Under the pieces are notes generated by a model. That model was not told the origin of the DNA. It was given only the letters and a program-made list of their open reading frames with translations, and searched no databases. Positions 30,191-45,419 of a stretch of 64,000 bases of DNA are shown one piece after another. The position numbers and the translations under genes were made by a program. Within the stretch, counting starts at the first letter, position 1. Every line of letters starts with the position of its first letter. Source of the DNA: Armatimonadota bacterium (GTDB taxonomy: Bacteria; Armatimonadota; HRBIN16); assembly GCA_963677485.1 (NCBI GenBank), contig OY781964.1, positions 416,001 to 480,000 of the forward strand, in the 5' to 3' direction.

Positions 30191-30372
30191 GAATTAAAAC
30201 GAATGCCTCCTCAGGCAGTTGAATTCTCAACAGATTAATTATAACGAGTGTATCTATTAGTTTACCCGGCTGTCCCTATATATGACAGCAACAGAACAGT
30301 ATAGGAACTGTGCACCATGCTGATAGACGACAGATACCTGAACAATGTTCTACTAGCTATGACAACTACGAC

Positions 30373-30400
30373 AAAAAAGGGGATGCCTTAGCATCCCCTT
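30373..30400 (-). terminator. Intrinsic terminator of the rubrerythrin gene
   Basis: AAAAAAGGGGATGC-ctta-GCATCCCCTT; the T-tract is on the minus strand. Confidence 0.8.
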
Positions 30401-30423
30401 CAAATGGAAGATACCAGGGTGTA

Positions 30424-30963: not shown

Positions 30964-31098
30964 AAGTAATATATCCTCCTGCCGTTCTGCTATGTGCTAG
31001 CTGCGAGAACTGCATCTTATGGAAGTATACCTTAATCCCGGCTATTTATGTGTGGATTTGGTCGCCATTTCTGTAGAATCTAACGGAGGGTCATATGG

Positions 31099-32283
31099 AT
31101 GCGTATCATTTACACCACGATGCAGTCGCCGTTCTCGAAATCTGAGCCATTCATAACCAATGAACTGCTTGAGCTGCATCGTCAAGGCCACGATTTGCGG
31201 ATATACCCTTTGACGGTACCGAATATAACCAAATTCCCCATTCATCCAGATTTACAGCCATCAACCGTCGTGAAGCCCTACTGGCATCCCGCAATTCTGC
31301 TCACCGCAGCCAGGTTATTTTCTACTAGCCATCAAGCTCGGAAAATCGTGACGCTGATATTGTCATCAAGTAAGACGGTCCCTGTACTACTACGAAACAT
31401 CACTGTTATTCCGAAGGCCTTGTGGTTGTCAGAACAAGCCACCAGGTGGAAAGCAGATCACATCCATGCTCACTGGATCAACATGAGTGCCACCACCGCC
31501 ATGGTCGCCAGTGAGTTAAGTGGTATTCCCTTTAGCATCACCGCTCACAGGGGTGATATTGCGGACAACAACCTGCTGCAGATGAAAGCTGAGAAAGCGG
31601 CTTTCGTGCGTTTCATTGCCGACTTCAGCATGACAATGTATCGGGATAGGACGCAGAACCTAGAATCAGGCAAAGAAAACTTGGTGCGCCTGAACATGGG
31701 AGTATCTGTGCCAGAACAGATCGAACCATTCACCCCCATAACCCAGTTACGCATCTCCTGTCCTGCGAACTTCATACACATCAAAAACCAAAAAGTTCTC
31801 ATCGAAGCCGCGCGACTGCTCCAACAACAAGGGATAGCGGTTTCGCTGTTGTTAGCAGGCGACGGCCCTACCAGATCGGCTTGCATGAGGCTATGCCAGG
31901 ATTACCACCTAAATGCCGAATTCCCTGGTGTGATGCCTAACCAAAAAATACTGGATCTATATCGCGAGCGTAAAATAGACGTTGTGGTGCTCCCCTCCTC
32001 AGTAGAGGGTATCCCTGTCTGCCTTTTAGAAGCGATGGCATACGGACTGCCGGTGGTCGCCACCGAAGTGGGCGGCGTGCCAGAGCTGCTATCGGGCGAC
32101 TGCGGCTTGATGGTGCCTCCTCAACAGCCTCAAGACCTGGCCGAAGCACTGAAAAGCTTAATCGACAACCCAGAACGCACGGCACTGATGGTAGCGAACG
32201 GACGCCGGAAGGTTGAAACGGAATTTAACCAGCCCTTGATAGTCAAACGCCTGGTGGAACTGATGGGGTCTGCTCGTTCATAG
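31099..32283 (+). CDS. GT4 glycosyltransferase (WcaL-like)
   Basis: SEPFITNE, DHIHAHW, EGIPVCLLEAMAYGLPVVATEVGG. Confidence 0.88.
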   Translation: MRIIYTTMQSPFSKSEPFITNELLELHRQGHDLRIYPLTVPNITKFPIHPDLQPSTVVKPYWHPAILLTAARLFSTSHQARKIVTLILSSSKTVPVLLRNITVIPKALWLSEQATRWKADHIHAHWINMSATTAMVASELSGIPFSITAHRGDIADNNLLQMKAEKAAFVRFIADFSMTMYRDRTQNLESGKENLVRLNMGVSVPEQIEPFTPITQLRISCPANFIHIKNQKVLIEAARLLQQQGIAVSLLLAGDGPTRSACMRLCQDYHLNAEFPGVMPNQKILDLYRERKIDVVVLPSSVEGIPVCLLEAMAYGLPVVATEVGGVPELLSGDCGLMVPPQQPQDLAEALKSLIDNPERTALMVANGRRKVETEFNQPLIVKRLVELMGSARS

Positions 32284-32429
32284 CGCTGCGTGACTGTACC
32301 ACGACATGCTCTCCCTACACACAAACTGCGATAACTCACAAATTCACATAAATCCGCCCATTTCTCCGCTATTCCCGCCCATTTCTGTGGTAACCTGTAT
32401 GCTAATCATCACCTAATCGGAGGCATATC

Positions 32430-33932
32430 ATGCCAGCAGTCAGCTCCATCATCGCGTCACGCGACCAGCTATCGATACAGCTTCAGGATGCCCCAGCGGG
32501 GGTACCGGCATCAGTCCAACTCTGCGCTCCCTGGGACGGCTCCGTCCTGGCGGAGATGACCACCAGCACAAACGCCGATGGACACTTGAGCGTGCCCCGT
32601 CATTTGAACCATTGGGACGCATTGACACTGCTCATCAAGGTTACTCTGGCCGGCGAAGAGCTGAAAGGTGTCTCTACCGTCACCGATATGGATGAGATCG
32701 CCACCTACACATACGATTACCCCGTGGCCGATTCGATCAAGGGGCTGCAGGTGGCCGGCAGCATGGTCGACGACGCCATCAAACTGGGAGTGCGTCACGC
32801 AGCCATCAACCTGAACCAAGGCGACATCATGATGCCCGGCCCTGGTGAGAACATCTCAGAATACAAGTGCAACGGCCAGACTTTTTACTTTGACGAAGCC
32901 TACATGGAGAAGTTTGACGAGACTATCCGCAACCTCACAGATGCTGGCATCATCGTCTCGCTTATCCTTCTGAATAGTCCGCACTGGCGGCGTGAGATGA
33001 GCCAGGAGATGAAGGACATCCTGATGCACCCCCACTACAACCCGGAGGGGCTGATCAGTGCCTTCAACCTGACCAACGAGACCGGCTTCAACCACTACCA
33101 GGCGTTTGTGGAATACGCAGCCATTCGCTTCAGCGACCCTAGCGGGGTCCACGGCCGTGTATGGGGCTACATCGTAGGCAACGAGATAGATAGCCAATGG
33201 GTGTGGGGTAACGCCGGTGAAATGAGCTGCCATGACTACATGGCCGAATACACCCTGGCGATGCGCACCACCTGGCTGGCCGCACAGAAGGTCAACAGTG
33301 CCAGCCGCGTCTACATCAGCCTGACGCATCTGTTCAACATCTCGCACCTAAAGAACCAGCTTCAAACTTACCCGGCGGCTCAATGCCTGAAGGAGCTGGC
33401 AGCTTATTGCGCTCAGGATGGCGATTTCCCCTGGGCAGTGGCATTCCACCCCTACCCCGAGGACCTGCGATTCCCAGACTTCTGGAACGACGAAACCGCA
33501 TGGGACACGCTGGACACGCCGCGAATCACATTCAAGAACATCCATGTGCTGCCCAAATTCCTGGAGCAGCCGGAGTATCTCTACCGTGGGCAGCGGCGTA
33601 AAATCATCCTCAGCGAGCAGGGCTTCAACAGCCACAAGACCGACATCAGCGAGCAGTTCCAGGCGGCGGCGTATGCCCTGGCATTCGAGAATGTGCAGGC
33701 CTGCCCTGAAATTGAGGCTTTCATACTTCATGCGCACATCGACAACCTGGATGAGTTCGGCTTGAACCTCGGCATGTGGCAGGTAGATGACAAGAATGTG
33801 GCCATCAGCAAGAAGCCGATCTACGATGTGTTCGATGGCATAGAGGGCCCGAAACGGCAGGAGATTCTCGCCTGGGCACACACATATCTGGACAAGAAAA
33901 TGAACCGCAAAGAAGAAGAGCGGCTCTACTAA
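32430..33932 (+). CDS. DUF5722-like clan GH-A glycoside hydrolase, no signal peptide
   Basis: SIKGLQV, IVGNEIDS, FHPYPEDL, ITFKNI, IILSEQGF; GGAGG RBS. Confidence 0.75.
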   Translation: MPAVSSIIASRDQLSIQLQDAPAGVPASVQLCAPWDGSVLAEMTTSTNADGHLSVPRHLNHWDALTLLIKVTLAGEELKGVSTVTDMDEIATYTYDYPVADSIKGLQVAGSMVDDAIKLGVRHAAINLNQGDIMMPGPGENISEYKCNGQTFYFDEAYMEKFDETIRNLTDAGIIVSLILLNSPHWRREMSQEMKDILMHPHYNPEGLISAFNLTNETGFNHYQAFVEYAAIRFSDPSGVHGRVWGYIVGNEIDSQWVWGNAGEMSCHDYMAEYTLAMRTTWLAAQKVNSASRVYISLTHLFNISHLKNQLQTYPAAQCLKELAAYCAQDGDFPWAVAFHPYPEDLRFPDFWNDETAWDTLDTPRITFKNIHVLPKFLEQPEYLYRGQRRKIILSEQGFNSHKTDISEQFQAAAYALAFENVQACPEIEAFILHAHIDNLDEFGLNLGMWQVDDKNVAISKKPIYDVFDGIEGPKRQEILAWAHTYLDKKMNRKEEERLY

Positions 33933-34004
33933 ACGATCGCGGACAAACGGGCGGATCGTTGGTTACAGCATCCGCCCGGACCTATTGAGTAAAGGATATT
34001 ACAT

Positions 34005-35567
34005 ATGCGTTTTACAATCGTGATGTGCGCTGCTGCACTAATGGTCAGCAGCATGAGTCAAGCCTTTGTCAGCCTTCCGTCTGTCACGAAGATTACAGTA
34101 GACAAGACGTCCATCAAGTTAAGTCTCAGCTCTGCCACTCCAAAAGACGTCACCGTCTGGGAGCTATCGCCATGGAGTCAGGTCCCATCGGGGGCGGTGT
34201 ATTATAAACAAAGTGGGAAGAACCTGACTATCAGCCGGTATGAAGGCGCCCGTGACCGCATCACAAGCGGCTTCCTGGTGAAACAAGGCCAGGCGGTTTA
34301 CACCGGTGTCCGCTTCGCCACAGACTTTGGCAAAATCAGTAAATACCAGACGGCCTACCCCAAGATTACGAGCATCAAAGGTCTGCAGGTCACAGACATC
34401 CCTGACGCAGTAAAGTTAGGCGTCAGACATGCAGCCATCAACTTGAACCAGGGTGACTTCATGCTCTCCGGTCCAGCAGATGGTGCGCTGGTTCACGAGA
34501 TGAACGGCAAGAAGTTCTACTTCGACGGTAACCAGGTGCGCAACTTCGACAAACGGGTGAAAGACCTGACCGACAATCACATCCTCGTGACCCTTATCCT
34601 GCTGAACAGCAAGAACTGGGCCAAGTCGATGACGCCCGACATACAAGCCATCTTGCTGCACCCCAAATACGACGCAGAGGGGCTGATCAGTGCCTTCAAC
34701 CTCACCAATACCAAAAGCTACGAGTATTACGAGGCCTTCATCGACTTCACGATGAACCGCTATGCTGACCCCAAAGCTCCACACGGCCGAGTCTGGGGTA
34801 TGATCATCGGAAATGAGATCGACAGTCACTGGATATGGGGCAACGCGGGGCTCATCAGCGCTGAACAGTATATGCGCGAATATACGACCGCGATGCGCAC
34901 CGCTTACCTCATCGGTGCCAAATACAACACCAACCTGCGTGTGTATATCAGCCTGACGCACATGTTCAACAAGCCCTACAATGACAACCCAAAACAGACC
35001 ATCAGTGCCAGGAAATGCCTGGAGCTGCTCAACGCGAATTGCCAGAGTGACGGCGACTTTCCATGGTCAGTGGCCTACCATCCCTATCCTGAGGACCTGA
35101 GCTTCCCTGACTTCTGGAACGACGCCACCGCGACCGATTCCTTGGACACTACCACTCGAATCACGTTCAAGAACATCGAGCTGCTGCCCAAGTTCCTCAA
35201 CCAGCCGCAGTTCCTGTATCGCGGCAAGCAGCGCAAGATCATCCTGAGCGAGCAAGGCTTCAACAGCCGCAAGACCGACGAAAGCGAGCAGTTCCAAGCC
35301 GCCGCGTATGCACTGGCCTATGACAAAATCAAGAAGTGCTCTGGGATCGAGGCGTTCATACTTCATGCCCACCAGGATAATCTGGGTGAGTTTGGTTTGA
35401 ACCTTGGTCTTTGGCGGGTGGATGACAACAATAAACCCATCAGCAAGAAGCCGATCTACGATGTGTTCCGCGACATCGATGGATCCCGCGGTCCGGAGAT
35501 TCTAGCCTGGGCAAAGACCTTCCTGGACAAAAAGATGCAGCGGAAACCAGCAGATAAGCTGTATTAG
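34005..35567 (+). CDS. DUF5722-like clan GH-A glycoside hydrolase, secreted paralogue
   Basis: Signal peptide MRFTIVMCAAALMVSSMSQA; same motifs (GNEIDS, HPYPEDL, ILSEQG). Confidence 0.75.
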   Translation: MRFTIVMCAAALMVSSMSQAFVSLPSVTKITVDKTSIKLSLSSATPKDVTVWELSPWSQVPSGAVYYKQSGKNLTISRYEGARDRITSGFLVKQGQAVYTGVRFATDFGKISKYQTAYPKITSIKGLQVTDIPDAVKLGVRHAAINLNQGDFMLSGPADGALVHEMNGKKFYFDGNQVRNFDKRVKDLTDNHILVTLILLNSKNWAKSMTPDIQAILLHPKYDAEGLISAFNLTNTKSYEYYEAFIDFTMNRYADPKAPHGRVWGMIIGNEIDSHWIWGNAGLISAEQYMREYTTAMRTAYLIGAKYNTNLRVYISLTHMFNKPYNDNPKQTISARKCLELLNANCQSDGDFPWSVAYHPYPEDLSFPDFWNDATATDSLDTTTRITFKNIELLPKFLNQPQFLYRGKQRKIILSEQGFNSRKTDESEQFQAAAYALAYDKIKKCSGIEAFILHAHQDNLGEFGLNLGLWRVDDNNKPISKKPIYDVFRDIDGSRGPEILAWAKTFLDKKMQRKPADKLY

Positions 35568-35592
35568 GCAAGCTGAACGACGCAATTCATCT

Positions 35593-35644
35593 ATCTGTCG
35601 TGTGCCCCCCTCGCCTCTCGCTGCGAGGGTGACACACGGCAGAT
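35593..35644. other. Long imperfect hairpin after the DUF5722 pair (terminator or stabiliser)
   Basis: ATCTGTCGTGTG-CCCCCCTCGC...GCGAGGG-TGACACACGGCAGAT; no clear U-tract. Confidence 0.5.
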
Positions 35645-35731
35645 CAACCTCCACCTCATCAGATGGATCAGTAAGACCTCGCCCACCCCTCACTTGACAA
35701 TCACCCAAAAAGCTGGCATATGTATACTGTC

Positions 35732-35749
35732 TGCTAGACCGGTCTAGCA
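35732..35749. promoter_or_regulatory. Perfect 18-bp palindrome, putative LacI-family operator
   Basis: TGCTAGACCGGTCTAGCA, 3 bp downstream of TATACT (35723-35728) and upstream of the lacI-family gene. Confidence 0.75.
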
Positions 35750-35796
35750 CCCCCTATTCCATGACACTGAAACTCACGGAACGAGAAGGAGACGGC

Positions 35797-36897
35797 GTGC
35801 CCGAACTCGACGACACATCACCGCAACCAGGCTCCCCGGTGACCATTTACGACATCGCCAGGCAGTTAGGGCTCTCACCCAGCACCGTGGGACATGCACT
35901 CAACGGCACGGGACGGGTCAGCCAGAAGACCTGCGAACGCGTCGTGGCGGCGGCGGCGAGCATGGGCTATCGTCCCTCTCTGGTGGCCAAGTCGTTATCC
36001 AATAGCCGCACCCGAACATTGGGCGTGCTGGTGCCGATCATCGGCAACACTGCCTATTCCAATATGGTGCATGGCATCGAAGCGGCCGCATACCAGGCGG
36101 GATACAATATCATCCTCTGCTGCAGCGAGTTTGACCAAAACCGCGAACACCAGTATCTGGAGATGCTCTGCAACCGGCGGGTCGAAGGCATCATCGTGAT
36201 CCCCTCACGCCGTGTCAACTCACACAAACAGCAGGTGGACCACCTGGTGAAAATCCTGCAGAGCGGTATTCCACTGGTCGTGCTGGAGCAGAACCTGGCG
36301 GATCAACGGCTAAGCCGCGTGGTGATGGATAATTTCGGCGCCGCGAAACAGCTTGTCCAACACCTTATCGAACTGCAGCATAAGCGGATTGGGTTTCTGC
36401 ACCTGGGCTATGAACAGACCGACTATGCTGGCAATGAGCGGTTTGAAGGGTATCTCGCCGCGCTCCATGATGCGGGCCTCCACTACACGCCCTCGTTGAG
36501 TGCCCAGGCCGCCACAGTGTCGGTCTACGAGGATGAAGGTGACAGCAAAGCCCAGTTCGAGGCCTATTACCAAGCCGCTGGCCGACCCACGGCGGTCTTC
36601 GCGGTGAACGACATCCTGGCAATCAAGCTCATCCAGGCTTGCCAGATGATCGGTCTACGTGTGCCAGAGGATGTGGCCGTGGTTGGTTTCGACAACATCA
36701 CCGTCTCAGCTCTCATCAACCCTCCGCTGACCACTATCTACCAGCCCGCTGAGGCAATGGGGAAAAGGGCTACAGAGTTAATATTTGATACCATTCACAG
36801 CCGACTGCAGACACCCGTCTATGAGGTGCTGCCTGGCCAGCTCATCATTCGACAGTCATGCGGCCAAACAACCAACAAAAGGAACTCAACTTCATGA
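35797..36897 (+). CDS. LacI-family transcriptional regulator
   Basis: TIYDIARQLGLSPSTVGHALNG HTH, GYRPS, DVAVVGFDN, PPLTTI. GTG at 35797 follows AAGGAG (ORF track starts at 35761). Confidence 0.92.
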   Translation: MPELDDTSPQPGSPVTIYDIARQLGLSPSTVGHALNGTGRVSQKTCERVVAAAASMGYRPSLVAKSLSNSRTRTLGVLVPIIGNTAYSNMVHGIEAAAYQAGYNIILCCSEFDQNREHQYLEMLCNRRVEGIIVIPSRRVNSHKQQVDHLVKILQSGIPLVVLEQNLADQRLSRVVMDNFGAAKQLVQHLIELQHKRIGFLHLGYEQTDYAGNERFEGYLAALHDAGLHYTPSLSAQAATVSVYEDEGDSKAQFEAYYQAAGRPTAVFAVNDILAIKLIQACQMIGLRVPEDVAVVGFDNITVSALINPPLTTIYQPAEAMGKRATELIFDTIHSRLQTPVYEVLPGQLIIRQSCGQTTNKRNSTS

Positions 36898-37790
36898 GCT
36901 CACACAAAATCGCCACCGAATCTGACTACACTAAGCGTGTGGATCACATCACATCAGGCGTGTTTCTACCTGACACCAACATTGAGGTCATCAGCGAACC
37001 GAAGTGCTGCGGTACGTACCGCTACGCACTTTTTGATTTCGACGGCACGCTCAGCCTGCTGAGGGCAGGATGGCCGGCGGTGATGACCGGTTTGATGAAG
37101 CGCGTGCTGCTGGCAACGCCCAACTGCGAACCCGAACCACAGCTTGAGATCCACATCAAAGAGCTGATTGAACGAACCACCGGCAAGCAGACCATCTACC
37201 AGATGATCGCGTTGTGTGACGAAGTCCGACAACGTGGAGGTGAGCCACTTGAGCCAACTGTATATAAAAAGCAATATCTCGATCTGCTGATGGCGCAGAT
37301 TCAACACCGGCTTGACGGCCTGCGGTCTGGTTCCCTGAAACCAGAGCAGATGCTGGTGGCCGGTTCCATCGAGCTGCTGGACTCCTTGGCTAGCCATGGC
37401 GTCCAGATGTATCTTGCCAGCGGAACAGACCAGGAGTTCGTGCGGGATGAAGCCAATCTGCTGGGAGTGGCGCACTATTTCGGTGACCATATCTATGGAG
37501 CCATTGAAGATTACCAGAACTACTCCAAAGCCAAAGTGATTGAGCGTATTCTGAAGGACTGCGGGGCTTCAGGAAGTGAGCTCCTGGGCTTTGGCGACGG
37601 CTATGTGGAGATTGACAACACCAAGAATGCCGGCGGAACCGCCATCGGCGTCGCCAGCGACGAGGAGAACCGATCAGGCATGCCCGACCCAGTAAAACGT
37701 GAGAGGCTGATCGGCGTAGGTGCGGACATCATCACGCCCGACTTCAAACACGCTAAAGACCTGATACAGCACCTATTTGGAGGAAAATAA
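36894..37790 (+). CDS. HAD-family phosphatase
   Basis: LFDFDGTLSL (motif I), LASGT, K, GFGDGYVEI; ATGA overlap with the lacI stop. Confidence 0.85.
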   Translation: MSSHKIATESDYTKRVDHITSGVFLPDTNIEVISEPKCCGTYRYALFDFDGTLSLLRAGWPAVMTGLMKRVLLATPNCEPEPQLEIHIKELIERTTGKQTIYQMIALCDEVRQRGGEPLEPTVYKKQYLDLLMAQIQHRLDGLRSGSLKPEQMLVAGSIELLDSLASHGVQMYLASGTDQEFVRDEANLLGVAHYFGDHIYGAIEDYQNYSKAKVIERILKDCGASGSELLGFGDGYVEIDNTKNAGGTAIGVASDEENRSGMPDPVKRERLIGVGADIITPDFKHAKDLIQHLFGGK

Positions 37791-38914
37791 TGACCGAAAG
37801 ACTTGACCGGAAACAGCTCATCATGCATCCACTCGCCGAGAGAGCTAACCAACTGGACATCACCAAAATGGCTGTCAGTCCTTCCCAGAAGGCCGATCCG
37901 TTGGCGGTGTTCGAAAGTACTCAGATCACCAGCCTAGCCGCCAGCATCAAGAGGGCAAAGGCAGCCGGTCGGCCTGTGATGATGACCTACGGTGCGCACC
38001 TGGTGAAGAACGGTCTAGCACCGGTGGTCATCAAGCTGATTGAACAGGGCTGGATCACCCATCTTGCCACCAACGGTGCAGGCACTATCCACGACTGGGA
38101 GTTTGCCTACCTCGGCCAGAGCAGCGAAGATGTGCGTGTCAACGCCGCGAAGGGGCAGTTCGGCGCCTGGGAAGAGACCGGTCGTTACATCAACCTGGCG
38201 ATATTGCTGAACGGCATCGACGGGTTGGGGTATGGATGGTCGGTAGGCAAGATGATCGCTACCGAACAGCTCACCATACCGTCCGTCGAACAACTCAAGG
38301 CCAGCATCCGCGCATTACTTGACCAGCCCGAATCTGACGATACGCTGTCCGCCATGTCGGATGCGATGGCCACCATCCAGGAACTGCAGCTGGAACCGGG
38401 CGTGCTTGCCGTCAAGCACGCATATAAGCGGTTCAGTATCCAGAATGCAGCCTGGACACACCAGGTGCCGTTTACGGTGCATCCTGGGATCGGCTATGAC
38501 ATCATCCATACCCATCCGGCATGCTGCGGTGGTGCCCTTGGCCGCGGAGCCATCCGCGACTTTCTGAGCTACGCCGAGTGCGTCAGCCGACTCAGCGGAG
38601 GGGTTCACATGAGCGTCGGTTCCGCCATCATGGCCCCGATGGTCTTCGAGAAGTCGTTATCCATGGCCAACAACCTCGCCATCCAACGCACCGGTCAGCC
38701 CATCACCGACCACACCATGGCAGTGGTGGACATCCAGGATGGCGGCGGATGGGACTGGAGTCAGGGCGAGCCGCCTAAAGACAACCCCGCCTACTACCTG
38801 CGCTTCTGCAAGACTTTCCACCGCATGGGAGGCACATTGGACTACCTCTGCATGGACAACAAGCAGTTCCTTCTGAGCCTTTATCATGAGCTGAATGGGG
38901 ATTCGCCGGCATGA
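37790..38914 (+). CDS. Uncharacterised deoxyhypusine-synthase-like (DHS NAD-binding fold) protein
   Basis: YGAHLVKNGL, HLATNGAGTIHDWE, SEDV, FGAWEETG, PFTVHPGIG.DIIH, GSAIMAPMVFEK; TAATG coupling. Fold assigned by recalled resemblance. Confidence 0.6.
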   Translation: MTERLDRKQLIMHPLAERANQLDITKMAVSPSQKADPLAVFESTQITSLAASIKRAKAAGRPVMMTYGAHLVKNGLAPVVIKLIEQGWITHLATNGAGTIHDWEFAYLGQSSEDVRVNAAKGQFGAWEETGRYINLAILLNGIDGLGYGWSVGKMIATEQLTIPSVEQLKASIRALLDQPESDDTLSAMSDAMATIQELQLEPGVLAVKHAYKRFSIQNAAWTHQVPFTVHPGIGYDIIHTHPACCGGALGRGAIRDFLSYAECVSRLSGGVHMSVGSAIMAPMVFEKSLSMANNLAIQRTGQPITDHTMAVVDIQDGGGWDWSQGEPPKDNPAYYLRFCKTFHRMGGTLDYLCMDNKQFLLSLYHELNGDSPA

Positions 38915-39948
38915 TGACCCAATCCCGTTTAGCGGAACTGACCGCCCAGTTCACCAGCCGACGCATCGCCGTCATGGGTGATTTCTTCCTGGACAAGTAC
39001 CTGGAGTGCGACCCAGCTCTGGCGGAAACTTCGCTGGAAACAGGCAAGACCGCACACCAGGTGGTGCAGGTTCGTCACAGTCCAGGTGCCGCGGGGAACA
39101 TCGTGAGCAACCTGATCTCATTGGGGGCGAATGTCTACGCCGTGGGCTTTACAGGAGACGATGGCGAAGGGTATGAGCTCCGGCAGGACCTTAACGCCAT
39201 GGGTTGTGACACGCGCTATCTTCTGACAGAACCAAGCCGGTATACCCCGGTATACCTCAAGCCGCGAGTTTTCGGCATCAGCGGGTTGGAGGGGGAGCGA
39301 GAGCGCTACGACACCAAGAACCACGCCCCCCTACCCACGGCATTAGAAGACCAGTTTATCGCATTACTGCCGGAGCTGCTGACTCAGGTCGATGCGGTGA
39401 TCATCGCCGACCAGGTGAATGAGCCCGATTTCGGGGTGGTCACCTCCCGTGTCCGCATGAGCATAGAGCAAGCGGCCACTGAACACCCAGAGACGTTGTT
39501 CTGGGTCGACAGCCGCGAACGGGCGGGGATGTTCCATGGCTGCACATTAAAGCCTAATCGGCAGGAGGCTATCTGGGCTGCGTTTGGCATCAGTGAACCA
39601 AACGCGAACGAGCACAAAGCACTTGCCGCAGGACAGTTACTACACGACCGCACTGGAAAACCGGTGTTCCTCACAATGTCCGAACAGGGCATCATGGTAT
39701 TCGATCATGATGCACACGAGTCAGTGCCAGGAATACATATAGAAGGCCCTACCGACCCCACAGGGGCCGGTGACAGTGCCACCGCAGGAGCAGTGCTCGC
39801 TCTCGCCTCCGGAGGAAGTCCTACGGAAGCGGCACTGCTGGGCAACCTGACCGCCTCCGTCACAGTCTGCCAAATCGACACCACCGGCACCGCGCGTGTG
39901 TCCGACCTCGCCGACCGGCTGAATCTGTGGCATCAGCAGCATGGGTAG
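38911..39948 (+). CDS. PfkB-family sugar kinase, HldE/RfaE kinase-domain-like
   Basis: IAVMGDFFLDKY, PGAAGN, LKPN..E, DPTGAGD; ATGA overlap. Confidence 0.85.
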   Translation: MMTQSRLAELTAQFTSRRIAVMGDFFLDKYLECDPALAETSLETGKTAHQVVQVRHSPGAAGNIVSNLISLGANVYAVGFTGDDGEGYELRQDLNAMGCDTRYLLTEPSRYTPVYLKPRVFGISGLEGERERYDTKNHAPLPTALEDQFIALLPELLTQVDAVIIADQVNEPDFGVVTSRVRMSIEQAATEHPETLFWVDSRERAGMFHGCTLKPNRQEAIWAAFGISEPNANEHKALAAGQLLHDRTGKPVFLTMSEQGIMVFDHDAHESVPGIHIEGPTDPTGAGDSATAGAVLALASGGSPTEAALLGNLTASVTVCQIDTTGTARVSDLADRLNLWHQQHG

Positions 39949-40037
39949 CAGCCCATTGCGTTGCAAGTATGATACTCCAACCGATTACACACAACGCAGT
40001 CTGGATTGCCAAAAGACCACTAGATACACGATGGATC

Positions 40038-40275
40038 GTCCGGCACCCACGAAGTGGGTATGATTCTTATAGCCAGGGGTGAGCGAAGCGATACCCCTGG
40101 TAAGCAGCATAAACCATTTACCCCAAAGGGGTCGTCTCTGGTTCCCGAATGTTGAGCATCCATAATACCGTTCGACCCCCATCCGGGGGTAAACACTGCA
40201 GCCTTGTTACCACGGGTTTCGCATTCGCTCACCCGTGGCTGTAAGAGTCGCTACCCACTTCGTGGGTGCCCGGAC
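40038..40275. repeat. REPIN-like ~238-bp nested palindrome
   Basis: GTCCGGCACCCACGAAGTGGGTA...TACCCACTTCGTGGGTGCCCGGAC; inner AGCCAGGGGTGAGCGAAGCGATACCCCTGGT / ACCACGGGTTTCGCATTCGCTCACCCGTGGCT; TTTACCCCAAAGGGGTCG / CGACCCCCATCCGGGGGTAAA. Confidence 0.85.
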
Positions 40276-40333
40276 TGTCTGGACTGAGATTCATGCTTAC
40301 TTGGGTGAATAGTCGCCCCCTTTACTGCCGTAG

Positions 40334-40360
40334 GCCAATCGGGAGATTGGCGTTCCCAGG
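40334..40360. repeat. REP palindrome GCCAATCGGGAGATTGGCG(T)TCCCAG, single copy
   Basis: Same unit occurs as an inverted doublet at 43620-43700. Confidence 0.8.
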
Positions 40361-40456
40361 GCACTCCTGTCACCACGCTTCAAGCACAAATGCCATTACT
40401 GATGTATTATATAAGGTGGCATTTTCTACCGAATAGAACATCAGCGGAGTGAGTTT

Positions 40457-41797
40457 ATGCAACGCAACACAATATTAGCTCTCGTAGCATCAGCTTGTGC
40501 TGTCGTGGCCATCGCGGCCTCGCCTGCAGCCAAGCTCTATCTCAAGGAGCGCTTCATTGGGGGGGAACCGCCAGCCCCCAATGTCATCACCGTCTGGCAC
40601 CCCTGGGGAGGCACCAACAAAGACAAGCTGGAACAAACAGCCCGCATCTTTGAGAAGAGCCACCCTGGCCTGAAAGTAAACCTCGTCTTCGTATCGAACA
40701 ACCTGGGAGCTGGGCAGAAGTTCTTCACATCAGTAGCCGCAGGTAAGGCACCGGATGTCACATTTGTTGACGGGCCGCAAGTACCGGAATGGGCGGTTCA
40801 AGGCGCTATTCAATCTTTGAATAAGTATATTAAGCGAGATAAGGTCAACCCTAACGACTTTTTCAAGCCCTGTTGGGACCAAAACCGGTGGGAAGGTCAG
40901 ACCTATGCGATGACTTTCTGCGCCGACCCTAACTTCGCCTTTGCCTGGAACAACGACGTGATGAAACGCGCCGGACTACCGGTCAACAGGCCACCACTAA
41001 CCATTGATGAGATGGACGCTTACAACGACAAGATGACCCAGCGGGCCAGTACAGGACGCCTGACAGGCATCGGCATCATCCCCTGGGCACAGTTCGGCGG
41101 GGCCAACTCCGTGTTTACCTGGGGCTGGGCCTTTGGTGGCGACTTCTACGATGCCAAAAACCGCAAGATCATCGCGGACAAGACCAAAGTGATGGACGCC
41201 TTCAAATGGATGATGTCATATGCGAAAAAGTATGATGCCACCAAGATCGCCAGCCTGTCACAAGGGTTTGGAAGCCTGGAGCAAGACCCCTTCTATACCG
41301 GCACCATCGGTATGCGCTGCTTCCACATCTACCAGGTCAACGACCAAAAGACCTACGCACCGAAGCTGAACTACGGGCTGGGATACATCCCCTACCCCAA
41401 AGGCGGCGAAAAGAACAGCTCCTGGGTGGGCGGCTGGTGCATGGCACTGCCACGCGGCTGTAAAAATCCTGACAACGGCTGGGAGTTCATCCGCTGGATG
41501 TGCGCCACTAAAGAAGGCACCAATACGATGGCGACCCTGAATGGCCTGTTCCCCGGTTTGAAAACCTGCCCATACTTTGAGACCATCAAGAACGACCCTA
41601 AATACGGTGTTTTCCTGGAAGTCATCAAAAACTGCAAACATCAGCGACCGGTGATGCCAGCCCAGAGCTACTTCATGCAGCAGTTGGAGCGCGCGTGTGA
41701 CCAAGCTACCAATGGGCTAAAAACACCAGAGCAGGCACTGCGTGACGCCGTGAGGGAAACGCAGGCTGAGCTTGATCTCAGGTTAAAGGGGAAGTAA
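40457..41797 (+). CDS. Carbohydrate ABC transporter solute-binding protein (CUT1)
   Basis: Hydrophobic N-terminus, ITVWHPWGG, AAGKAPDV, SWVGGW, GWEFIRWM. Confidence 0.88.
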   Translation: MQRNTILALVASACAVVAIAASPAAKLYLKERFIGGEPPAPNVITVWHPWGGTNKDKLEQTARIFEKSHPGLKVNLVFVSNNLGAGQKFFTSVAAGKAPDVTFVDGPQVPEWAVQGAIQSLNKYIKRDKVNPNDFFKPCWDQNRWEGQTYAMTFCADPNFAFAWNNDVMKRAGLPVNRPPLTIDEMDAYNDKMTQRASTGRLTGIGIIPWAQFGGANSVFTWGWAFGGDFYDAKNRKIIADKTKVMDAFKWMMSYAKKYDATKIASLSQGFGSLEQDPFYTGTIGMRCFHIYQVNDQKTYAPKLNYGLGYIPYPKGGEKNSSWVGGWCMALPRGCKNPDNGWEFIRWMCATKEGTNTMATLNGLFPGLKTCPYFETIKNDPKYGVFLEVIKNCKHQRPVMPAQSYFMQQLERACDQATNGLKTPEQALRDAVRETQAELDLRLKGK

Positions 41798-41800
41798 CTG

Positions 41801-42724
41801 ATGAGCCAGGACTTACAACACCGAAAATATGTCGGCGCAATCGAGCGCCGAAACCAGCGGAACGGCATACTGTTCTGTCTGCCATCGATCATCGGTTTGG
41901 CACTATTCACAGCCTTCCCGATTTTGGCATCCTTCTATTTCAGCTTCTGTAACTACGATGGACTGAACCCAGCGAAGTGGATAGGCTCCGCAAACTACGA
42001 GCGGCTGCTAACAGACCCTCTGGTGAAAGTGTCGCTTTACAACACCTTCTACTATGCCATCATCGCTGTGCCGCTAGGTATCGTGGTGGCCTACATACTG
42101 GCATTGCTGCTGAACCAGAAGGTGAAGGGCATGGCGTTATTCCGAACGCTCTTCTTCCTGCCCAGCATCGTGCCGACGGTCGCTAGCTCCGTGCTTTGGT
42201 TGTGGATATTGAACCCGCAATATGGTTTGATCAACGCCATCATTGAGAAGGTCACCCATCACGCAGGACCAGGATGGATGTCGGACCCGCACCTCGCGAA
42301 ATGGGGCCTCATTATGATGAGCACCTGGGGCGTGGGCGGATCGATGCTGATCTTCCTGGCGGGATTGCAGAATGTGCCGCAGGACCTTCTTGATGCCGCC
42401 GAGGTTGATGGCGCCACCCCATGGTATAAACTATGGCACGTCACCATCCCGATGACCAGTCCACAGATATTCTTCAACCTGATCATGGGCGTGATCGGCT
42501 CGCTGCAGTACTTCACGCAAGCCTACGTCATGACCGGCGGTATGGGAACCCCTGCCGACAGCACCCTGTTCTTCGCGCTCTATCTGTTCAAAAACGCCTT
42601 TATGGACTTCAAAATGGGCTACGCCAGTGCCATGGCCTGGCTGCTGTTTGTGGTCACCCTGGTGCTCACACTGGGCATCTTTAAAGGCTCAGATAAGCAC
42701 GTGTACTACGGGGGAGGGCGCTAA
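41801..42724 (+). CDS. Sugar ABC permease (MalF/UgpA type)
   Basis: FRTLFFLP, EAA-like loop LLDAAEVDGA, MGYASAMAW. Confidence 0.92.
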   Translation: MSQDLQHRKYVGAIERRNQRNGILFCLPSIIGLALFTAFPILASFYFSFCNYDGLNPAKWIGSANYERLLTDPLVKVSLYNTFYYAIIAVPLGIVVAYILALLLNQKVKGMALFRTLFFLPSIVPTVASSVLWLWILNPQYGLINAIIEKVTHHAGPGWMSDPHLAKWGLIMMSTWGVGGSMLIFLAGLQNVPQDLLDAAEVDGATPWYKLWHVTIPMTSPQIFFNLIMGVIGSLQYFTQAYVMTGGMGTPADSTLFFALYLFKNAFMDFKMGYASAMAWLLFVVTLVLTLGIFKGSDKHVYYGGGR

Positions 42725-42726
42725 GC

Positions 42727-43581
42727 ATGAGAAAGCGAAACACGCTGTCGAACTACATCGGCTTTGCGCTGCTGGTGATACTTAGCACCATCTTCACTCT
42801 GCCTTTTTACTGGCTTGTGACCAGTTCGTTCAAGACGAACGAGAACCTGAACAAGTTCCCACCGCAACTCTGGCCTACGCCAGCCACCAGTGAGCACTAT
42901 GTGCTCAGCCTGATAGGCAAGGCCTCCGAAGGTATCGTGCCGTTGCCGTGGGGGTTGTTCCTCTTGAACACCGTCATCATCTGCGTGCTGAGTGTGGCGG
43001 GTGTGCTGATCAGCAGCTCGCTGGTGGCTTATGGCCTGTCGCGCATTCAGTGGAAAGGCAGCAACGCGCTGTTCTGGTTACTGATCAGCACGATGATGCT
43101 TCCGGGTCAGGTGACTATGATCCCCATGTTCGCCATGTTCACGAAGTTCGGCTGGGTTGATACCTTCCTGCCGCTCGTGGTTCCAGCATTCACAGGTCAG
43201 GCCTTCAACATCTTCTTGTTGAGGCAGTTCTACCTGACGGTGCCGCAGGCGATCACCGAGGCGGCGCGTCTAGACGGCTGCAATGAGTTCCAGATATACC
43301 GCAGGATCATGCTGCCGTTGGCCGTGCCCGCATTGGCCACCGTTGGTCTGTTCACCTTCATTGGAAGCTGGAACGACTTCATGGGTCCATTGATCTACCT
43401 CTTCGATGAGAGCCGTTACACGCTGTCTCTGGGACTTCAGATGTTCCTCAGCCAGTATGGCAACTTCTTCGGGCGCCTGATGGCCATGTCCACATTGATG
43501 GTCATCCCGATTATCCTGCTGTTCTTCTTCGCACAGAAGACGTTCATCCAGGGAATCACCATGGGCGGCGTGAAGGAATAA
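42727..43581 (+). CDS. Sugar ABC permease (MalG/UgpE type)
   Basis: IFLLRQFY, EAARLDGC, WNDFMGPLIYL. Confidence 0.92.
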   Translation: MRKRNTLSNYIGFALLVILSTIFTLPFYWLVTSSFKTNENLNKFPPQLWPTPATSEHYVLSLIGKASEGIVPLPWGLFLLNTVIICVLSVAGVLISSSLVAYGLSRIQWKGSNALFWLLISTMMLPGQVTMIPMFAMFTKFGWVDTFLPLVVPAFTGQAFNIFLLRQFYLTVPQAITEAARLDGCNEFQIYRRIMLPLAVPALATVGLFTFIGSWNDFMGPLIYLFDESRYTLSLGLQMFLSQYGNFFGRLMAMSTLMVIPIILLFFFAQKTFIQGITMGGVKE

Positions 43582-43591
43582 ACCTGCGCAC

Positions 43592-43700
43592 AGGGGCGAC
43601 CGTCGGTCGCCCCTACCCCCTGGGGACGCCAATCTCCCGATTGGCTCTCTCGTATTCTAGCCACACAGGAACATGCCAATCGGGAGATTGGCGTGCCCAG
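43592..43700. repeat. REP cluster: one GTAG-type REP plus an inverted doublet of the GCCAATCGGGAGATTGGC REP
   Basis: AGGGGCGACCGTCGGTCGCCCCTAC (43592-43616); CTGGGGACGCCAATCTCCCGATTGGC and GCCAATCGGGAGATTGGCGTGCCCAG; lies between convergent genes. Confidence 0.85.
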
Positions 43701-43720
43701 AATGGTCCCCAACCATTCCC

Positions 43721-44461: not shown

Positions 44462-44596
44462 TCCCGTGGGATTTCGTTCAATTCAGTTTACCGTATCATG
44501 TTTCAGCAGGGAATGGTAGCTGAGGTGGCGTAATAGTAACTAAACGGTCTCTGAATGAGAGATACCTCAAGACGCACAAGGAGAACTCATACGCAT

Positions 44597-45403: not shown

Positions 45404-45419
45404 CGCAGGAGGTATAATC

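What the first reader, a model, noticed from the sequence alone, without database searches (positions are those of the whole stretch)
35732..39948. Candidate undescribed sugar pathway: lacI - HAD phosphatase - DHS-fold protein - HldE-like kinase
Seen: four genes coupled by ATGA, TAATG and ATGA overlaps behind a perfect operator palindrome. Established: an HldE-type kinase and a HAD phosphatase (GmhB) act in ADP-heptose synthesis; DHS-fold enzymes use bound NAD+ for transient oxidation; LacI control usually marks catabolism. Inference: the DHS-like protein is a new NAD-dependent sugar(-phosphate) isomerase or epimerase. The operon may salvage or catabolise an unusual sugar such as a heptose released by the DUF5722 enzymes. 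The substrate is speculative.
Basis: partly seen in the sequence, partly recalled or inferred. Interest (0 to 1): 0.7.

Follow-up and report, generated by a model that had tools for sequence, protein, structure and literature searches.

The report
LacI-controlled kinase, phosphatase, DHS-fold sugar module
This is a repressor-controlled operon for a widespread, still uncharacterised three-enzyme sugar-phosphate module, built around a protein with the deoxyhypusine-synthase fold, that here is co-regulated with an alpha-mannosidase and so probably helps the cell use mannose-type sugars.

Summary
Four genes, 35761-39948, are joined by ATGA, TAATG and ATGA overlaps behind a perfect 18-bp palindrome at 35732-35749.

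- **Proteins:** a LacI repressor, a capped HAD-IA hydrolase (not GmhB-type), a GSU2086-family protein (NF052581, 326 bits against a cut-off of 250) and an HldA/HldE-like PfkB kinase that scores below the heptose-kinase cut-off.
- **Fold:** the GSU2086 protein models confidently (pLDDT 93.4) as a deoxyhypusine-synthase/AgrE-type fold (Z 17-19). It is not a deoxyhypusine synthase.
- **Linkage:** kinase and HAD flank the gene in 38 of 80 related loci from many phyla. They are fused to each other in 29. All three are fused in 17 protein clusters of about 1021 aa.
- **Regulon:** a second perfect operator copy in this genome sits before a secreted GH136-like protein and a GH38 alpha-mannosidase. A sister species has the repressor and both operators; another has neither.
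- **Other phyla:** the module lies beside GH38, GH92, a GmhA-like isomerase, an AGE-family enzyme and a symporter.
- **DUF5722:** the link exists only in this genus.

The substrate and chemistry remain unknown. Nickel-pincer dependence and PMI replacement were tested and found no support. The scan has met this family before on other DNA.

The parts
35732..35749 (.). Perfect 18-bp palindrome TGCTAGACCGGTCTAGCA with a central CG. It is the inferred operator of the LacI repressor encoded 12 nt downstream.
   Evidence: the only perfect palindrome of 16 bp or more in the window. An identical second copy lies at G000:C1:2906647-2906664. Both copies are conserved at 100% in sister genome G002, while flanking proteins are 61-77% identical. 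Both are missing from G001, which also lacks the LacI orthologue.
35761..36897 (+). LacI-family repressor, 378 aa: an HTH at residues 28-73 plus a periplasmic-binding-protein-like sugar-binding domain.
   Evidence: PF00356 49.1 bits, PF13377 126.5 bits. No NCBIfam equivalog is over its cut-off; the best is RbsR at 229 against 382. The orthologue in G002 is 74% identical; the best hit in G001 is 29%.
36894..37790 (+). HAD-IA hydrolase with a helical C1 cap (298 aa). Motif I is FDFDGT. It is either a sugar-phosphate phosphatase or a beta-phosphomutase-like enzyme.
   Evidence: PF00702 50.1 bits, PF13419 40.1 bits. No NCBIfam family is over its cut-off. Invariant residues include D48, D50, S176, K212 and D235 in 29 homologues. 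AlphaFold pLDDT is 91.7. Foldseek neighbours are AlnB phosphatase, beta-phosphoglucomutase, PGP-like proteins and the MtlD phosphatase domain.
37790..38914 (+). GSU2086-family protein (374 aa), the long form carrying an insert of about 55 aa (roughly residues 159-214). It has a deoxyhypusine-synthase-like fold and unknown activity.
   Evidence: NF052581 326.4 bits against a cut-off of 250. pLDDT 93.4, pTM 0.92. The family profile matches ArgZ/AgrE at E 3e-6 to 1e-5 over profile positions 37-109. The long-insert clade has SH-aLRT 100. Invariant residues include H70, N95-G96-A97, H101-D102, E104, E113, E129, H231, D237 and K288.
38911..39948 (+). PfkB-family sugar(-phosphate) kinase (345 aa), a paralogue of the HldA/HldE kinase domain.
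   Evidence: PF00294 98.2 bits. TIGR02198 scores 142.5 bits, below the 345 cut-off, and the next best model scores 52.5. The GAGD motif is visible in the translation. A closer HldA-like gene (305.8 bits) lies at G000:C1:4063853.
32430..35567 (+). Two DUF5722 genes (32430-33932, no signal peptide seen; 34005-35567, with a signal-peptide-like N-terminus). This is context, linked to the module only within this genus.
   Evidence: PF18989 378.1 and 367.7 bits. The same order is found in G001 (L121) and G002 (L130). No DUF5722 hit was found in the other 80+19 loci.
40457..43581 (+). ABC sugar importer (solute-binding protein plus two permeases), 509 nt downstream. This is context; co-regulation is not shown.
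   Evidence: Pfam. The same order follows the kinase in G001 (L121). No operator-like site with 5 or fewer mismatches lies in the 39949-40456 gap.

Best explanation
The region is an autoregulated LacI operon. It encodes a conserved cytoplasmic three-enzyme module: an HldA-like PfkB kinase, a capped HAD-IA phosphohydrolase, and a GSU2086-family protein with the deoxyhypusine-synthase/AgrE fold.

**Shown**
- The three genes travel together across many phyla.
- They are often fused, as PfkB-HAD and as PfkB-HAD-GSU2086.
- A GmhA-like isomerase often joins them. The set is therefore a paralogue of the first steps of nucleotide-heptose synthesis (isomerase, anomeric kinase, phosphatase) without the nucleotidyltransferase.
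- In this genome the repressor's operator also precedes a secreted GH136-like protein and a cytoplasmic GH38 alpha-mannosidase.
- In other phyla the module lies in loci with alpha-mannosidases.

**Inferred mechanism**
1. Without its sugar(-phosphate) effector, LacI sits on the palindrome and shuts both units.
2. When the glycan is available, imported manno-configured sugar (mannose or a manno-heptose) is processed as a phosphate ester.
3. The kinase adds an anomeric phosphate.
4. The HAD enzyme removes or shifts the distal phosphate.
5. The DHS-fold protein, using a bound dinucleotide, carries out a redox-neutral epimerisation or isomerisation.

The step order is taken from the domain order in the fusions.

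**How likely**
- The module and its regulon: about 0.8.
- A role in using mannose-type sugars: about 0.5.
- The stated chemistry and order: about 0.2.
For: **Gene calls and overlaps:**

**Fold:**

**Linkage**
- PfkB and HAD both lie beside the GSU2086 gene in 38 of 80 loci (tblastn), and in 35 of 80 by ORF clustering.
- PfkB-HAD is a single ORF of at least 600 aa in 29 of 80 loci (Pfam on one representative).
- Among 28 longer homologues, 17 are PfkB-HAD-GSU2086 fusions, 3 are HAD-GSU2086, 1 is PfkB-GSU2086 and 1 is GSU2086-PfkB.
- The HAD subfamily was found in 23 of 41 related genomes. All 23 are among the 29 of 41 with a GSU2086 hit over cut-off.
- Armatimonadota short forms are also flanked by HAD and PfkB.

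**Heptose-pathway paralogy**
- TIGR02198 is the kinase's best model.
- A GmhA-like gene, below cut-off at 145-160 bits, is in 19 of 80 loci.
- GSU2086 itself lies between hldE and gmhA (table passage of PMC5585712).

**Regulon**
- The second operator lies about 70 bp upstream of a 758-aa secreted protein followed by GH38.
- Repressor and operators co-vary across three species of the genus.
- GH38 follows the operator unit in G002 too.

**Mannoside context elsewhere**
- In 19 Bacteroidota loci: GH38 in 5, GH92 in 5, AGE in 12, SSF in 13.
- GH38 lies directly beside the GSU2086 gene in single loci of Armatimonadota (L023), Hydrogenedentota (L093) and Planctomycetota (L078).
- A GH76-like gene is in the closest relative locus, L058.
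Against: - No enzyme activity, cofactor or effector is shown.
- In 42 of 80 loci the kinase and HAD are not adjacent.
- In Verrucomicrobiota and Planctomycetota loci the neighbours are housekeeping genes. In seven loci (Hydrogenedentota, Nitrospirota and unlabelled MAGs) the neighbour is alaS.
- In one Armatimonadota genus the GSU2086 gene sits beside GH32 (fructosidase) and a beta-helix protein instead. The mannose link is therefore not universal.
- GH38 is very common in this phylum: 36 of 41 genomes, with 12 matches in this genome. Genome-level co-occurrence says little.
- A kinase plus a phosphatase is odd for catabolism.
- Class I mannose-6-phosphate isomerase shows no inverse pattern with the module: 5 of 23 against 6 of 18.
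- The HAD fold search cannot separate a phosphatase from a mutase.
- Sequence-level similarity to NAD enzymes covers only profile positions 37-109.
Confidence: 0.55

Rival explanations
1. One reading: a salvage or catabolic route for a heptose. The sugar would be released from necromass glycans such as LPS cores, possibly by the DUF5722 enzymes. The kinase and HAD handle heptose phosphates. The DHS-fold protein is an NAD-dependent C6 epimerase or isomerase. A GmhA-like enzyme returns the carbon to sedoheptulose-7-phosphate.
For: - The kinase's best model is the heptose-7-phosphate kinase domain.
- GmhA-like partners occur in 19 of 80 loci.
- The namesake gene lies between hldE and gmhA.
- Earlier notes of this scan tie the family to ADP-heptose genes (unchecked here).
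- Alpha-mannosidase-type enzymes could in principle accept manno-heptosides (inference).
Against: - The kinase and the GmhA-like proteins are below the equivalog cut-offs.
- This genome has separate, closer HldA-, HldC- and GmhA-like genes.
- The DUF5722 link is confined to the genus.
- No heptose-specific enzyme is in the regulon.
- I know of no heptosidase activity for GH38 or GH92 (recalled, not searched).
Confidence: 0.2
2. Kinase-mutase catabolic route. The HldA-like kinase makes a beta-sugar-1-phosphate from a free sugar. The HAD enzyme then acts as a beta-phosphomutase, as beta-phosphoglucomutase does, moving the phosphate to C6 or C7. The GmhA-like isomerase finishes the route. The DHS-fold protein prepares the sugar by epimerisation.
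For: - The HAD model's close structural neighbours include many beta-phosphoglucomutase entries.
- A kinase-HAD fusion makes catabolic sense only if the HAD is not a simple phosphatase (inference).
- The locus contexts are catabolic.
Against: - Equally good neighbours are plain phosphatases: AlnB, PGP-like proteins and the MtlD phosphatase domain.
- Beta-phosphoglucomutase is over-represented in the PDB.
- ROK kinases in 7 of 80 loci would be redundant.
Confidence: 0.15
3. Anabolic module. It activates a sugar as a beta-1-phosphate for a glycan or a compatible solute, in the manner of the heptose pathway. The nearby GT4 gene would use the product. The LacI and glycosidase links would be secondary.
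For: - The order isomerase, kinase, phosphatase is the logic of ADP-heptose synthesis (established knowledge).
- GT4 lies at 31099-32283.
- The module sits in housekeeping contexts in several phyla.
Against: - No nucleotidyltransferase or glycosyltransferase is conserved next to the module.
- The repressor gene is translationally coupled to the module and shares its operator with a glycosidase unit.
- GT4 is not a recurrent neighbour.
Confidence: 0.1
4. The DHS-fold protein uses a nickel-pincer dinucleotide instead of NAD. Its nearest characterised relatives, the TIGR00300 ornithine cyclodeaminases, do so, and the invariant histidines and lysine would hold the cofactor.
For: - NCBIfam names TIGR00300 'nickel-pincer nucleotide-dependent'.
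- Passages of PMC13524815 cite Desguin 2025 for an NPAD-dependent ornithine cyclodeaminase. That paper itself was not seen.
- This genome has LarC and LarE.
- Several His residues and one Lys are invariant.
Against: - LarC is found in 24 of 29 genomes with GSU2086 and in 8 of 12 without.
- Four genomes that are 94-97% complete, including both with the long form closest to this one outside the genus, have GSU2086 but no LarC.
- This genome also has a LarA-like client for the cofactor.
- AgrE, an equally close relative, binds NAD+ (PDB title 6lrg).
Confidence: 0.05
5. It is a true polyamine enzyme: a deoxyhypusine or homospermidine synthase.
For: The shared fold and weak DS hits.
Against: - DS scores are far below cut-off: 16.9 against 27, and 17.1 against 304.
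- Identity to DHS structures is 7-12%.
- The protein is fused to sugar kinases and HAD enzymes.
- No polyamine genes lie nearby.
Confidence: 0.01

Closest known systems
NCBIfam NF052581 'GSU2086 family protein' (namesake: Geobacter sulfurreducens GSU2086, between hldE and gmhA)
   Same: The window protein scores 326.4 bits, over the curated 250-bit cut-off, along profile positions 2-300. It has the same fold class and the same invariant motifs as the short forms.
   Different: It belongs to a separate, well-supported clade with an insert of about 55 aa. It is linked to a capped HAD and a kinase-only PfkB under LacI, not to LPS or heptose genes. The family has no assigned function. The only paper found lists GSU2086 in a Tn-seq table.
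ADP-heptose pathway: GmhA isomerase, HldA/HldE-I kinase, GmhB phosphatase, HldC/HldE-II adenylyltransferase
   Same: The same enzyme classes occur in the same logic: a SIS isomerase in many loci, a PfkB kinase whose best model is TIGR02198, and a HAD enzyme.
   Different: The kinase and isomerase are below the equivalog cut-offs. The HAD is subfamily IA with a cap, not the capless GmhB type (GmhB's type is recalled). There is no adenylyltransferase. An extra DHS-fold enzyme is present. The setting is repressor-controlled and glycosidase-linked.
AgrE/ArgZ C-terminal ornithine cyclodeaminase domain and the LOR/SDH proteins (PDB 6lrf/6lrg, 6juy, 3c2q; TIGR00300)
   Same: These are the best structural matches: Z 18.1-18.9, 212-224 residues aligned, 15-17% identity. 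They are the only detectable sequence relatives in the PDB, at E 3.4e-6 to 0.002 over a shared G-rich/HD.E segment.
   Different: TIGR00300 scores 17.5 bits against 410.8. Similarity is limited to profile positions 37-109. The partners and contexts are entirely different. There is no amino-acid metabolism nearby.
Deoxyhypusine synthase (PF01916; PDB 1dhs, 8put, 7cmc)
   Same: The overall fold over about 250-267 residues, Z 17-18.
   Different: Identity is 7-12%. The protein scores below the family cut-offs. It is fused to sugar enzymes. Presence of the catalytic lysine could not be mapped here, because no model coordinates were available.
Beta-phosphoglucomutase and HAD-IA sugar phosphatases (e.g. 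AlnB 4ex7, Lactococcus beta-PGM, MtlD phosphatase domain)
   Same: The HAD model aligns to them at Foldseek E 2.5e-10 to 1e-8, TM 0.6-0.75 on the target. DxD motif I and the other HAD motifs are conserved.
   Different: Identity is 14-22%. A sequence search of the PDB gave a single weak hit, 3kzx at E 0.005. The cap carries its own invariant residues (R57, W60, Q99, T100, Q103, R139).

Membership tests
GSU2086 family (NCBIfam NF052581) | Whole-protein score over the curated cut-off (250 bits) with near full-length profile coverage | tested here: met
   326.4 bits, E 1.9e-97, profile positions 2-300 of 301. The genome search gave the same result.
Deoxyhypusine synthase (PF01916 / TIGR00321) | Family HMM score over cut-off | tested here: not met
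   PF01916 16.9 bits against 27; TIGR00321 17.1 bits against 304.25.
Deoxyhypusine synthase (PF01916 / TIGR00321) | DHS-like alpha/beta fold | tested here: met
   VIA Z 17.0-18.1 with 250-267 aligned residues to 1dhs, 8put and 7cmc. Foldseek probability is 1.00.
Deoxyhypusine synthase (PF01916 / TIGR00321) | Catalytic lysine and NAD-contact residues | not testable with these tools
   No model coordinates or residue-level structural alignment were available. Only a G-rich 'NGAG..HD.E' segment aligns to the AgrE/ArgZ sequences.
NPAD/NAD-dependent ornithine cyclodeaminase (TIGR00300, AgrE C-domain) | Family HMM score over cut-off | tested here: not met
   TIGR00300 17.5 bits against 410.8; PF21570 18.4 bits against 27.
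NPAD/NAD-dependent ornithine cyclodeaminase (TIGR00300, AgrE C-domain) | Co-occurrence with nickel-pincer cofactor synthesis (LarC) | tested here: not met
   LarC is in 24 of 29 GSU2086-positive genomes and in 8 of 12 GSU2086-negative genomes. G004, G006, G018 and G033 have the family but no LarC hit.
HldA / HldE kinase domain (TIGR02198) | Equivalog score over cut-off (345 bits) | tested here: not met
   142.5 bits. A separate gene in the genome scores 305.8 bits.
PfkB carbohydrate kinases (PF00294) | Family HMM over cut-off and the GAGD catalytic motif | tested here: met
   98.2 bits against 25.8. 'DPTGAGDS' is seen in the translation. The role of the motif is recalled.
GmhB (heptose bisphosphate phosphatase, capless HAD) | Match to a GmhB-type model | tested here: not met
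   The NCBIfam scan at E <= 0.01 listed five weak hits, none a GmhB model. The predicted structure has a helical cap, residues 60-167. That GmhB is capless is recalled.
HAD superfamily, subfamily IA | HAD motifs I-IV and a C1 cap | tested here: met
   PF00702 and PF13419 are over cut-off. D48/D50, S176, K212 and D235 are invariant. The cap helices are and the neighbours.
LacI/GalR repressors | N-terminal LacI HTH plus a periplasmic-binding-protein-like domain, with a palindromic operator | tested here: met
   PF00356 49.1 bits and PF13377 126.5 bits. The 18-bp palindrome lies 12 nt upstream and co-varies with the repressor across three genomes. Binding itself is not tested.

The most novel reading that the evidence does not exclude
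The HldA-like kinase, capped HAD enzyme and GSU2086-family DHS-fold protein together form an undescribed cytoplasmic pathway. Polysaccharide-degrading bacteria of many phyla would use it to assimilate manno-configured sugars: mannose from alpha-mannans, or heptose from cell-envelope debris. The route would pass through beta-anomeric sugar phosphates. The DHS-fold protein would be the first member of that fold to act on a sugar phosphate, as a dinucleotide-assisted epimerase or isomerase.
Probability: 0.3. Interest if true: 0.8.

Novelty: new variant of a known kind. Interest (0 to 1): 0.6.

Why it matters
The GSU2086 family is very large. One word-indexed search returned 7979 hits among 8000 scored candidates. 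It is strongly conserved and has no known activity. All characterised relatives of its fold act on amines: deoxyhypusine synthase and ornithine cyclodeaminases.

This locus gives three useful handles on the family:
- a minimal, translationally coupled operon;
- a repressor with a clean operator and a two-site regulon, which names a physiological setting (alpha-mannoside use);
- natural three-domain fusions that show the three enzymes act together.

If the chemistry is solved, it would add a new reaction type to the DHS fold. It would also fill an unannotated step in carbohydrate-utilisation loci of Bacteroidota, Armatimonadota, Planctomycetota, Verrucomicrobiota, Acidobacteriota and others. 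It may further explain the family's unexplained presence in ADP-heptose operons.

Tried and rejected
1. **Nickel-pincer cofactor dependence.** LarC, LarE and a LarA-like gene exist in this genome. LarC shows no association with the family across 41 genomes.
2. **Replacement of class I mannose-6-phosphate isomerase.** None was found in this genome, and only two small cupins match PF01050. Across relatives ManA is in 5 of 23 module-positive genomes and 6 of 18 module-negative ones. There is no signal.
3. **Genome-level co-occurrence with GH38.** It is uninformative: GH38 is in 36 of 41 genomes.
4. **PDB sequence searches.**
   - GSU2086 protein alone: only E 0.72.
   - HAD: one hit at E 0.005.
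   - Kinase: none at 1e-8 or better.
   - DUF5722b: none at E <= 1.
5. **Phosphatase or mutase for the HAD, by fold.** Not resolved.
6. **Literature.**
   - 'GSU2086': one paper, a Tn-seq table only.
   - 'deoxyhypusine synthase-like' + 'heptose': 0 papers.
   - 'deoxyhypusine synthase-like': 13 papers, none relevant by title or abstract.
   - 'DUF5722': 0 papers.
   - HldE/HAD/PfkB/uncharacterized/mannosidase: 5 papers, none relevant by title or abstract.
   - Two searches for the AgrE structure paper failed, and its DOI is not held. NAD-contact residues could therefore not be taken from print.
   - Supplements were not consulted.
7. **ESM Atlas.** It returned only the family's own clusters, with automatic 'deoxyhypusine synthase' names.
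8. **Rfam.** No family at gathering score in 30000-47000.
9. **More operator copies.** No further operator-like site with 3 or fewer mismatches in the window. A third genomic site with 3 mismatches is at chance level, because the reversed-pattern control gave more hits.
10. **Promoter.** The consensus scan called none upstream of lacI.
11. **Not used.** Complex prediction, sequencing-run tools, and viral or metagenome scans.

Full report
**1. What is there**

Four ORFs on the + strand fill 35761-39948. Read directly from the sequence:
- The lacI stop overlaps the next start as ATGA (36894-36897).
- The second and third genes overlap as TAATG (37788-37792).
- The third and fourth overlap as ATGA (38911-38914).

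Twelve bases before the lacI ATG lies the perfect palindrome TGCTAGACCGGTCTAGCA at 35732-35749. It is the only perfect palindrome of 16 bp or more in the window. Fifty shuffles gave a mean of 0.26 18-bp palindromes.

Pfam and NCBIfam give:
- a LacI-family repressor;
- a HAD hydrolase (PF00702, PF13419) with no NCBIfam family over cut-off;
- a protein over the curated cut-off of NF052581, 'GSU2086 family protein' (326.4 against 250 bits), with only sub-threshold hits to deoxyhypusine synthase, ArgZ-like and TIGR00300;
- a PfkB kinase whose best model by far is the HldE kinase domain TIGR02198 (142.5 bits, cut-off 345; the next model scores 52.5).

Neighbours:
- upstream, a GT4 glycosyltransferase and two DUF5722 genes;
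- downstream after a 509-nt gap, an ABC sugar importer, a divergent SIS protein (PRK02947 type), IolB and a Gfo/Idh/MocA oxidoreductase.

Names attached to the closest database proteins place the organism in Armatimonadota.

**2. The fold**

I aligned 41 family members (A1) and folded the window protein. The model has pLDDT 93.4 and pTM 0.92.

- Foldseek against the PDB ranks the LOR/SDH protein 3c2q first, then the AgrE/ArgZ C-terminal domains, then deoxyhypusine synthases. E is 3.6e-8 to 1e-5 and probability 1.00.
- VIA-align gives Z 18.9 for 6lrf_A (218 residues aligned), 18.1 for 8put_A (267), 18.1 for 3c2q_A and 17.0 for 1dhs (253).
- The family profile finds ArgZ (E 3.4e-6), AgrE (1.1e-5) and 3c2q (0.0023) in the PDB. 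The shared segment runs from the G-rich strand-loop to an 'HD.E' motif, profile positions 37-109.

The DHS-like fold is therefore confirmed. The closest relatives are ornithine-cyclodeaminase-type domains rather than deoxyhypusine synthase itself.

The window protein carries an insert of about 55 aa (roughly residues 159-214) that the short forms lack. In the model the insert forms two helices and two short strands.

Invariant residues across long and short forms include three histidines, several acidic residues, K288 and R18. I could not map these onto the NAD site of solved relatives, because no coordinates or residue-level alignment were available.

**3. Is the linkage conserved?**

A scan of one genome per species found 593 stretches encoding relatives. 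The best 80, all long forms from many phyla, were fetched with flanks.

- By tblastn with the window proteins (E <= 1e-10, more than half the query covered), 38 of 80 loci have both the kinase and the HAD next to the GSU2086 gene. Two more have one of them.
- By ORF clustering the count is 35 of 80. In 29 of 80 the kinase and HAD are a single ORF of at least 600 aa. Pfam on a representative shows PfkB followed by Hydrolase.
- Two gene orders occur: PfkB(-)HAD-GSU2086 in Bacteroidota, Spirochaetota and Lentisphaerota, and HAD-GSU2086-PfkB in Armatimonadota, Planctomycetota and Verrucomicrobiota.

A search for longer homologues returned 28 proteins:
- 17 are PfkB-HAD-GSU2086 fusions; 16 of them are about 1013-1068 aa (one named from Terracidiphilus gabretensis) and one, 825 aa, keeps only part of the kinase;
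- 3 are HAD-GSU2086;
- 1 is PfkB-GSU2086 and 1 is GSU2086-PfkB;
- 2 are tandem GSU2086 duplications;
- 4 are partial or other.

Within 41 related genomes, the HAD subfamily (47-59% identical outside the genus) is found in 23. All 23 are among the 29 that have a GSU2086 hit over cut-off.

In one genus the HAD-kinase pair stays together while the GSU2086 gene sits elsewhere.

A quick maximum-likelihood tree of 86 family members shows:
- the long-insert forms as one clade (SH-aLRT 100);
- this clade as sister to a short-form Armatimonadota clade that is also flanked by HAD and kinase;
- both apart from short forms that sit beside LpxK/GmhA-like or HldC-KdsB/PfkB genes.

The tree used four sliced fusion domains. 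It left out ORFs outside 330-460 aa.

**4. The regulon**

The 18-bp palindrome occurs exactly once more in the 5.2-Mb genome. That copy lies about 70 bp upstream of a 758-aa protein with a signal-peptide-like N-terminus and no Pfam family. Forty nucleotides after that gene comes a 1028-aa GH38 alpha-mannosidase without a signal peptide.

The N-terminal part of the 758-aa protein resembles GH136 lacto-N-biosidases (E 3.8e-17 to 3e-9). A later part resembles a levanase carbohydrate-binding module (E 8e-4).

Across three species of the genus:
- **G002** has both operator copies, unchanged. One lies between DUF5722b and the LacI-HAD genes. The other lies before the homologue of the 758-aa protein (67% identical), with a GH38 hit just downstream. 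Its LacI orthologue is 74% identical.
- **G001** carries DUF5722-DUF5722-HAD-GSU2086-PfkB-ABC with no repressor gene in between (L121). It has neither operator nor a LacI orthologue; its best hit is 29% identical.

This co-variation is good indirect evidence that the repressor recognises the palindrome and controls both units. Binding is not shown.

**5. Context in other phyla**

In 19 Bacteroidota loci the module is accompanied by:

| Neighbour | Loci of 19 |
|---|---|
| GmhA-like SIS protein (145-160 bits, below the 209-276 cut-offs) | 13 |
| Sodium:solute symporter | 13 |
| AGE-family epimerase/isomerase | 12 |
| GH38 | 5 |
| GH92 | 5 |
| ROK kinase | 5 |

- GH38 lies directly beside the GSU2086 gene in single loci of Armatimonadota, Hydrogenedentota and Planctomycetota.
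- The closest relative operon (L058) has LacI-HAD-GSU2086-PfkB-LacI and a GH76-like gene nearby.

Against a universal mannose link:
- one Armatimonadota genus has the gene beside GH32 and a beta-helix protein;
- seven loci (Hydrogenedentota, Nitrospirota and unlabelled MAGs) have it beside alaS;
- two Verrucomicrobiota and one Latescibacterota locus show unrelated neighbours.

DUF5722 was not found in any of the 80 loci, nor in the 19 other Armatimonadota stretches.

**6. Relation to heptose synthesis**

- GSU2086 itself lies between hldE and gmhA. It shares their Tn-seq phenotype in a table of PMC5585712 (passage read).
- Earlier notes of this scan report the family beside or fused to heptose enzymes in other genomes. 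I did not re-test those.
- This genome has separate, closer candidates for the real pathway: an HldA-like gene (305.8 bits), an HldC-like gene (165.5 bits) and a GmhA-like gene (98.3 bits). All are below cut-off.

The operon's enzymes are therefore paralogues of the heptose set, not the set itself.

**7. The HAD enzyme**

Twenty-nine homologues share the four HAD motifs plus cap residues of their own. The model (pLDDT 91.7) has a helical C1 cap.

Its Foldseek neighbours are AlnB phosphatase (E 2.5e-10), many beta-phosphoglucomutase entries, phosphoglycolate-phosphatase-like proteins and the MtlD phosphatase domain. This excludes a capless GmhB type. It does not tell a phosphatase from a mutase.

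**8. Cofactor idea tested**

NCBIfam now names TIGR00300 a nickel-pincer-dependent ornithine cyclodeaminase. Passages of PMC13524815 cite Desguin 2025 for that finding; the cited paper was not seen.

- This genome has LarC, LarE and a LarA-like gene.
- Across 41 genomes LarC is present in 24 of 29 with the family and in 8 of 12 without.
- Four near-complete genomes have the family without LarC.

There is no support for nickel-pincer dependence. NAD(P) remains the default inference from AgrE and DHS.

**9. Reading**

The robust part is a LacI-controlled, translationally coupled operon for a conserved three-enzyme module that works as a unit. In this genus it is co-regulated with a secreted glycosidase-like protein and a cytoplasmic alpha-mannosidase.

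The mechanism is inferred. From the paralogy and the domain order in the fusions, I favour this order:
1. the kinase adds an anomeric phosphate;
2. the HAD removes or shifts the distal phosphate;
3. the DHS-fold enzyme performs a redox-neutral epimerisation or isomerisation on a manno-configured sugar phosphate.

I put about 0.2 on that chemistry. A kinase-mutase route, a heptose-specific route and an anabolic role remain open.

**10. Novelty**

- The family is catalogued but unstudied.
- No paper describing its function was found with the searches listed.
- The scan has met the family and the kinase/HAD/DHS-like module before on other DNA.

What is new here:
- the long-insert clade;
- the three-domain fusions;
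- the repressor with a two-site regulon;
- the recurrent alpha-mannosidase context.

Together these shift the likely role from envelope heptose synthesis toward sugar assimilation.

Noticed in passing
window 40042-40270: A long inverted repeat sits in the gap between the kinase gene and the ABC binding-protein gene. The arms are 40042-40060/40252-40270 (19 nt, 100% complementary) and 40062-40087/40224-40249 (26 nt, 88%), with 136 nt between the inner arms. No Rfam family matches it. It could be a small mobile element or a structured RNA.
   Followed up: partly
G000:C1:3129088-3131809 and 1924721-1925209: The genome carries LarC (513.8 bits) and LarE (320.2 bits) close together, and a LarA-like gene elsewhere (79.6 bits). 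The organism therefore probably makes a nickel-pincer cofactor.
   Followed up: partly
L121 (G001:C1:3339475-3356560): A sister species has the same DUF5722-DUF5722-HAD-GSU2086-PfkB-ABC row at 90-98% protein identity. It has no repressor gene, neither operator copy, and only 88 nt between DUF5722b and the HAD gene. This looks like a recent gain or loss of the regulator.
   Followed up: yes
whole genome G000: There are twelve matches to the GH38 N-terminal domain in this one genome, and GH38 is found in 36 of 41 related genomes. The lineage looks specialised on alpha-mannosides.
   Followed up: no
P0121, P0122: Two proteins of 731 and 693 aa consist of two GSU2086 domains in tandem. This hints that the family works as a dimer, as DHS-fold enzymes do (the latter is recalled).
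   Followed up: no
L031, L037, L045, L057 (Lentisphaerota loci), just upstream of the PfkB-HAD gene: A pair of small genes recurs directly before the module in four loci. One is an AbiEii-type nucleotidyltransferase toxin (PF08843, 50.6 bits) and the other a 198-aa partner with no Pfam family.
   Followed up: no
window 32430-33932 and 34005-35567: Of the two adjacent DUF5722 paralogues, only the second has a signal-peptide-like N-terminus. The family has no PDB relative by sequence and no paper in the library.
   Followed up: partly
L038, L044, L047, L089, L094, L096, L097: In seven loci (Hydrogenedentota, Nitrospirota and unlabelled MAGs) the long-form GSU2086 gene follows the alanyl-tRNA synthetase gene, with no sugar genes beside it.
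   Followed up: no
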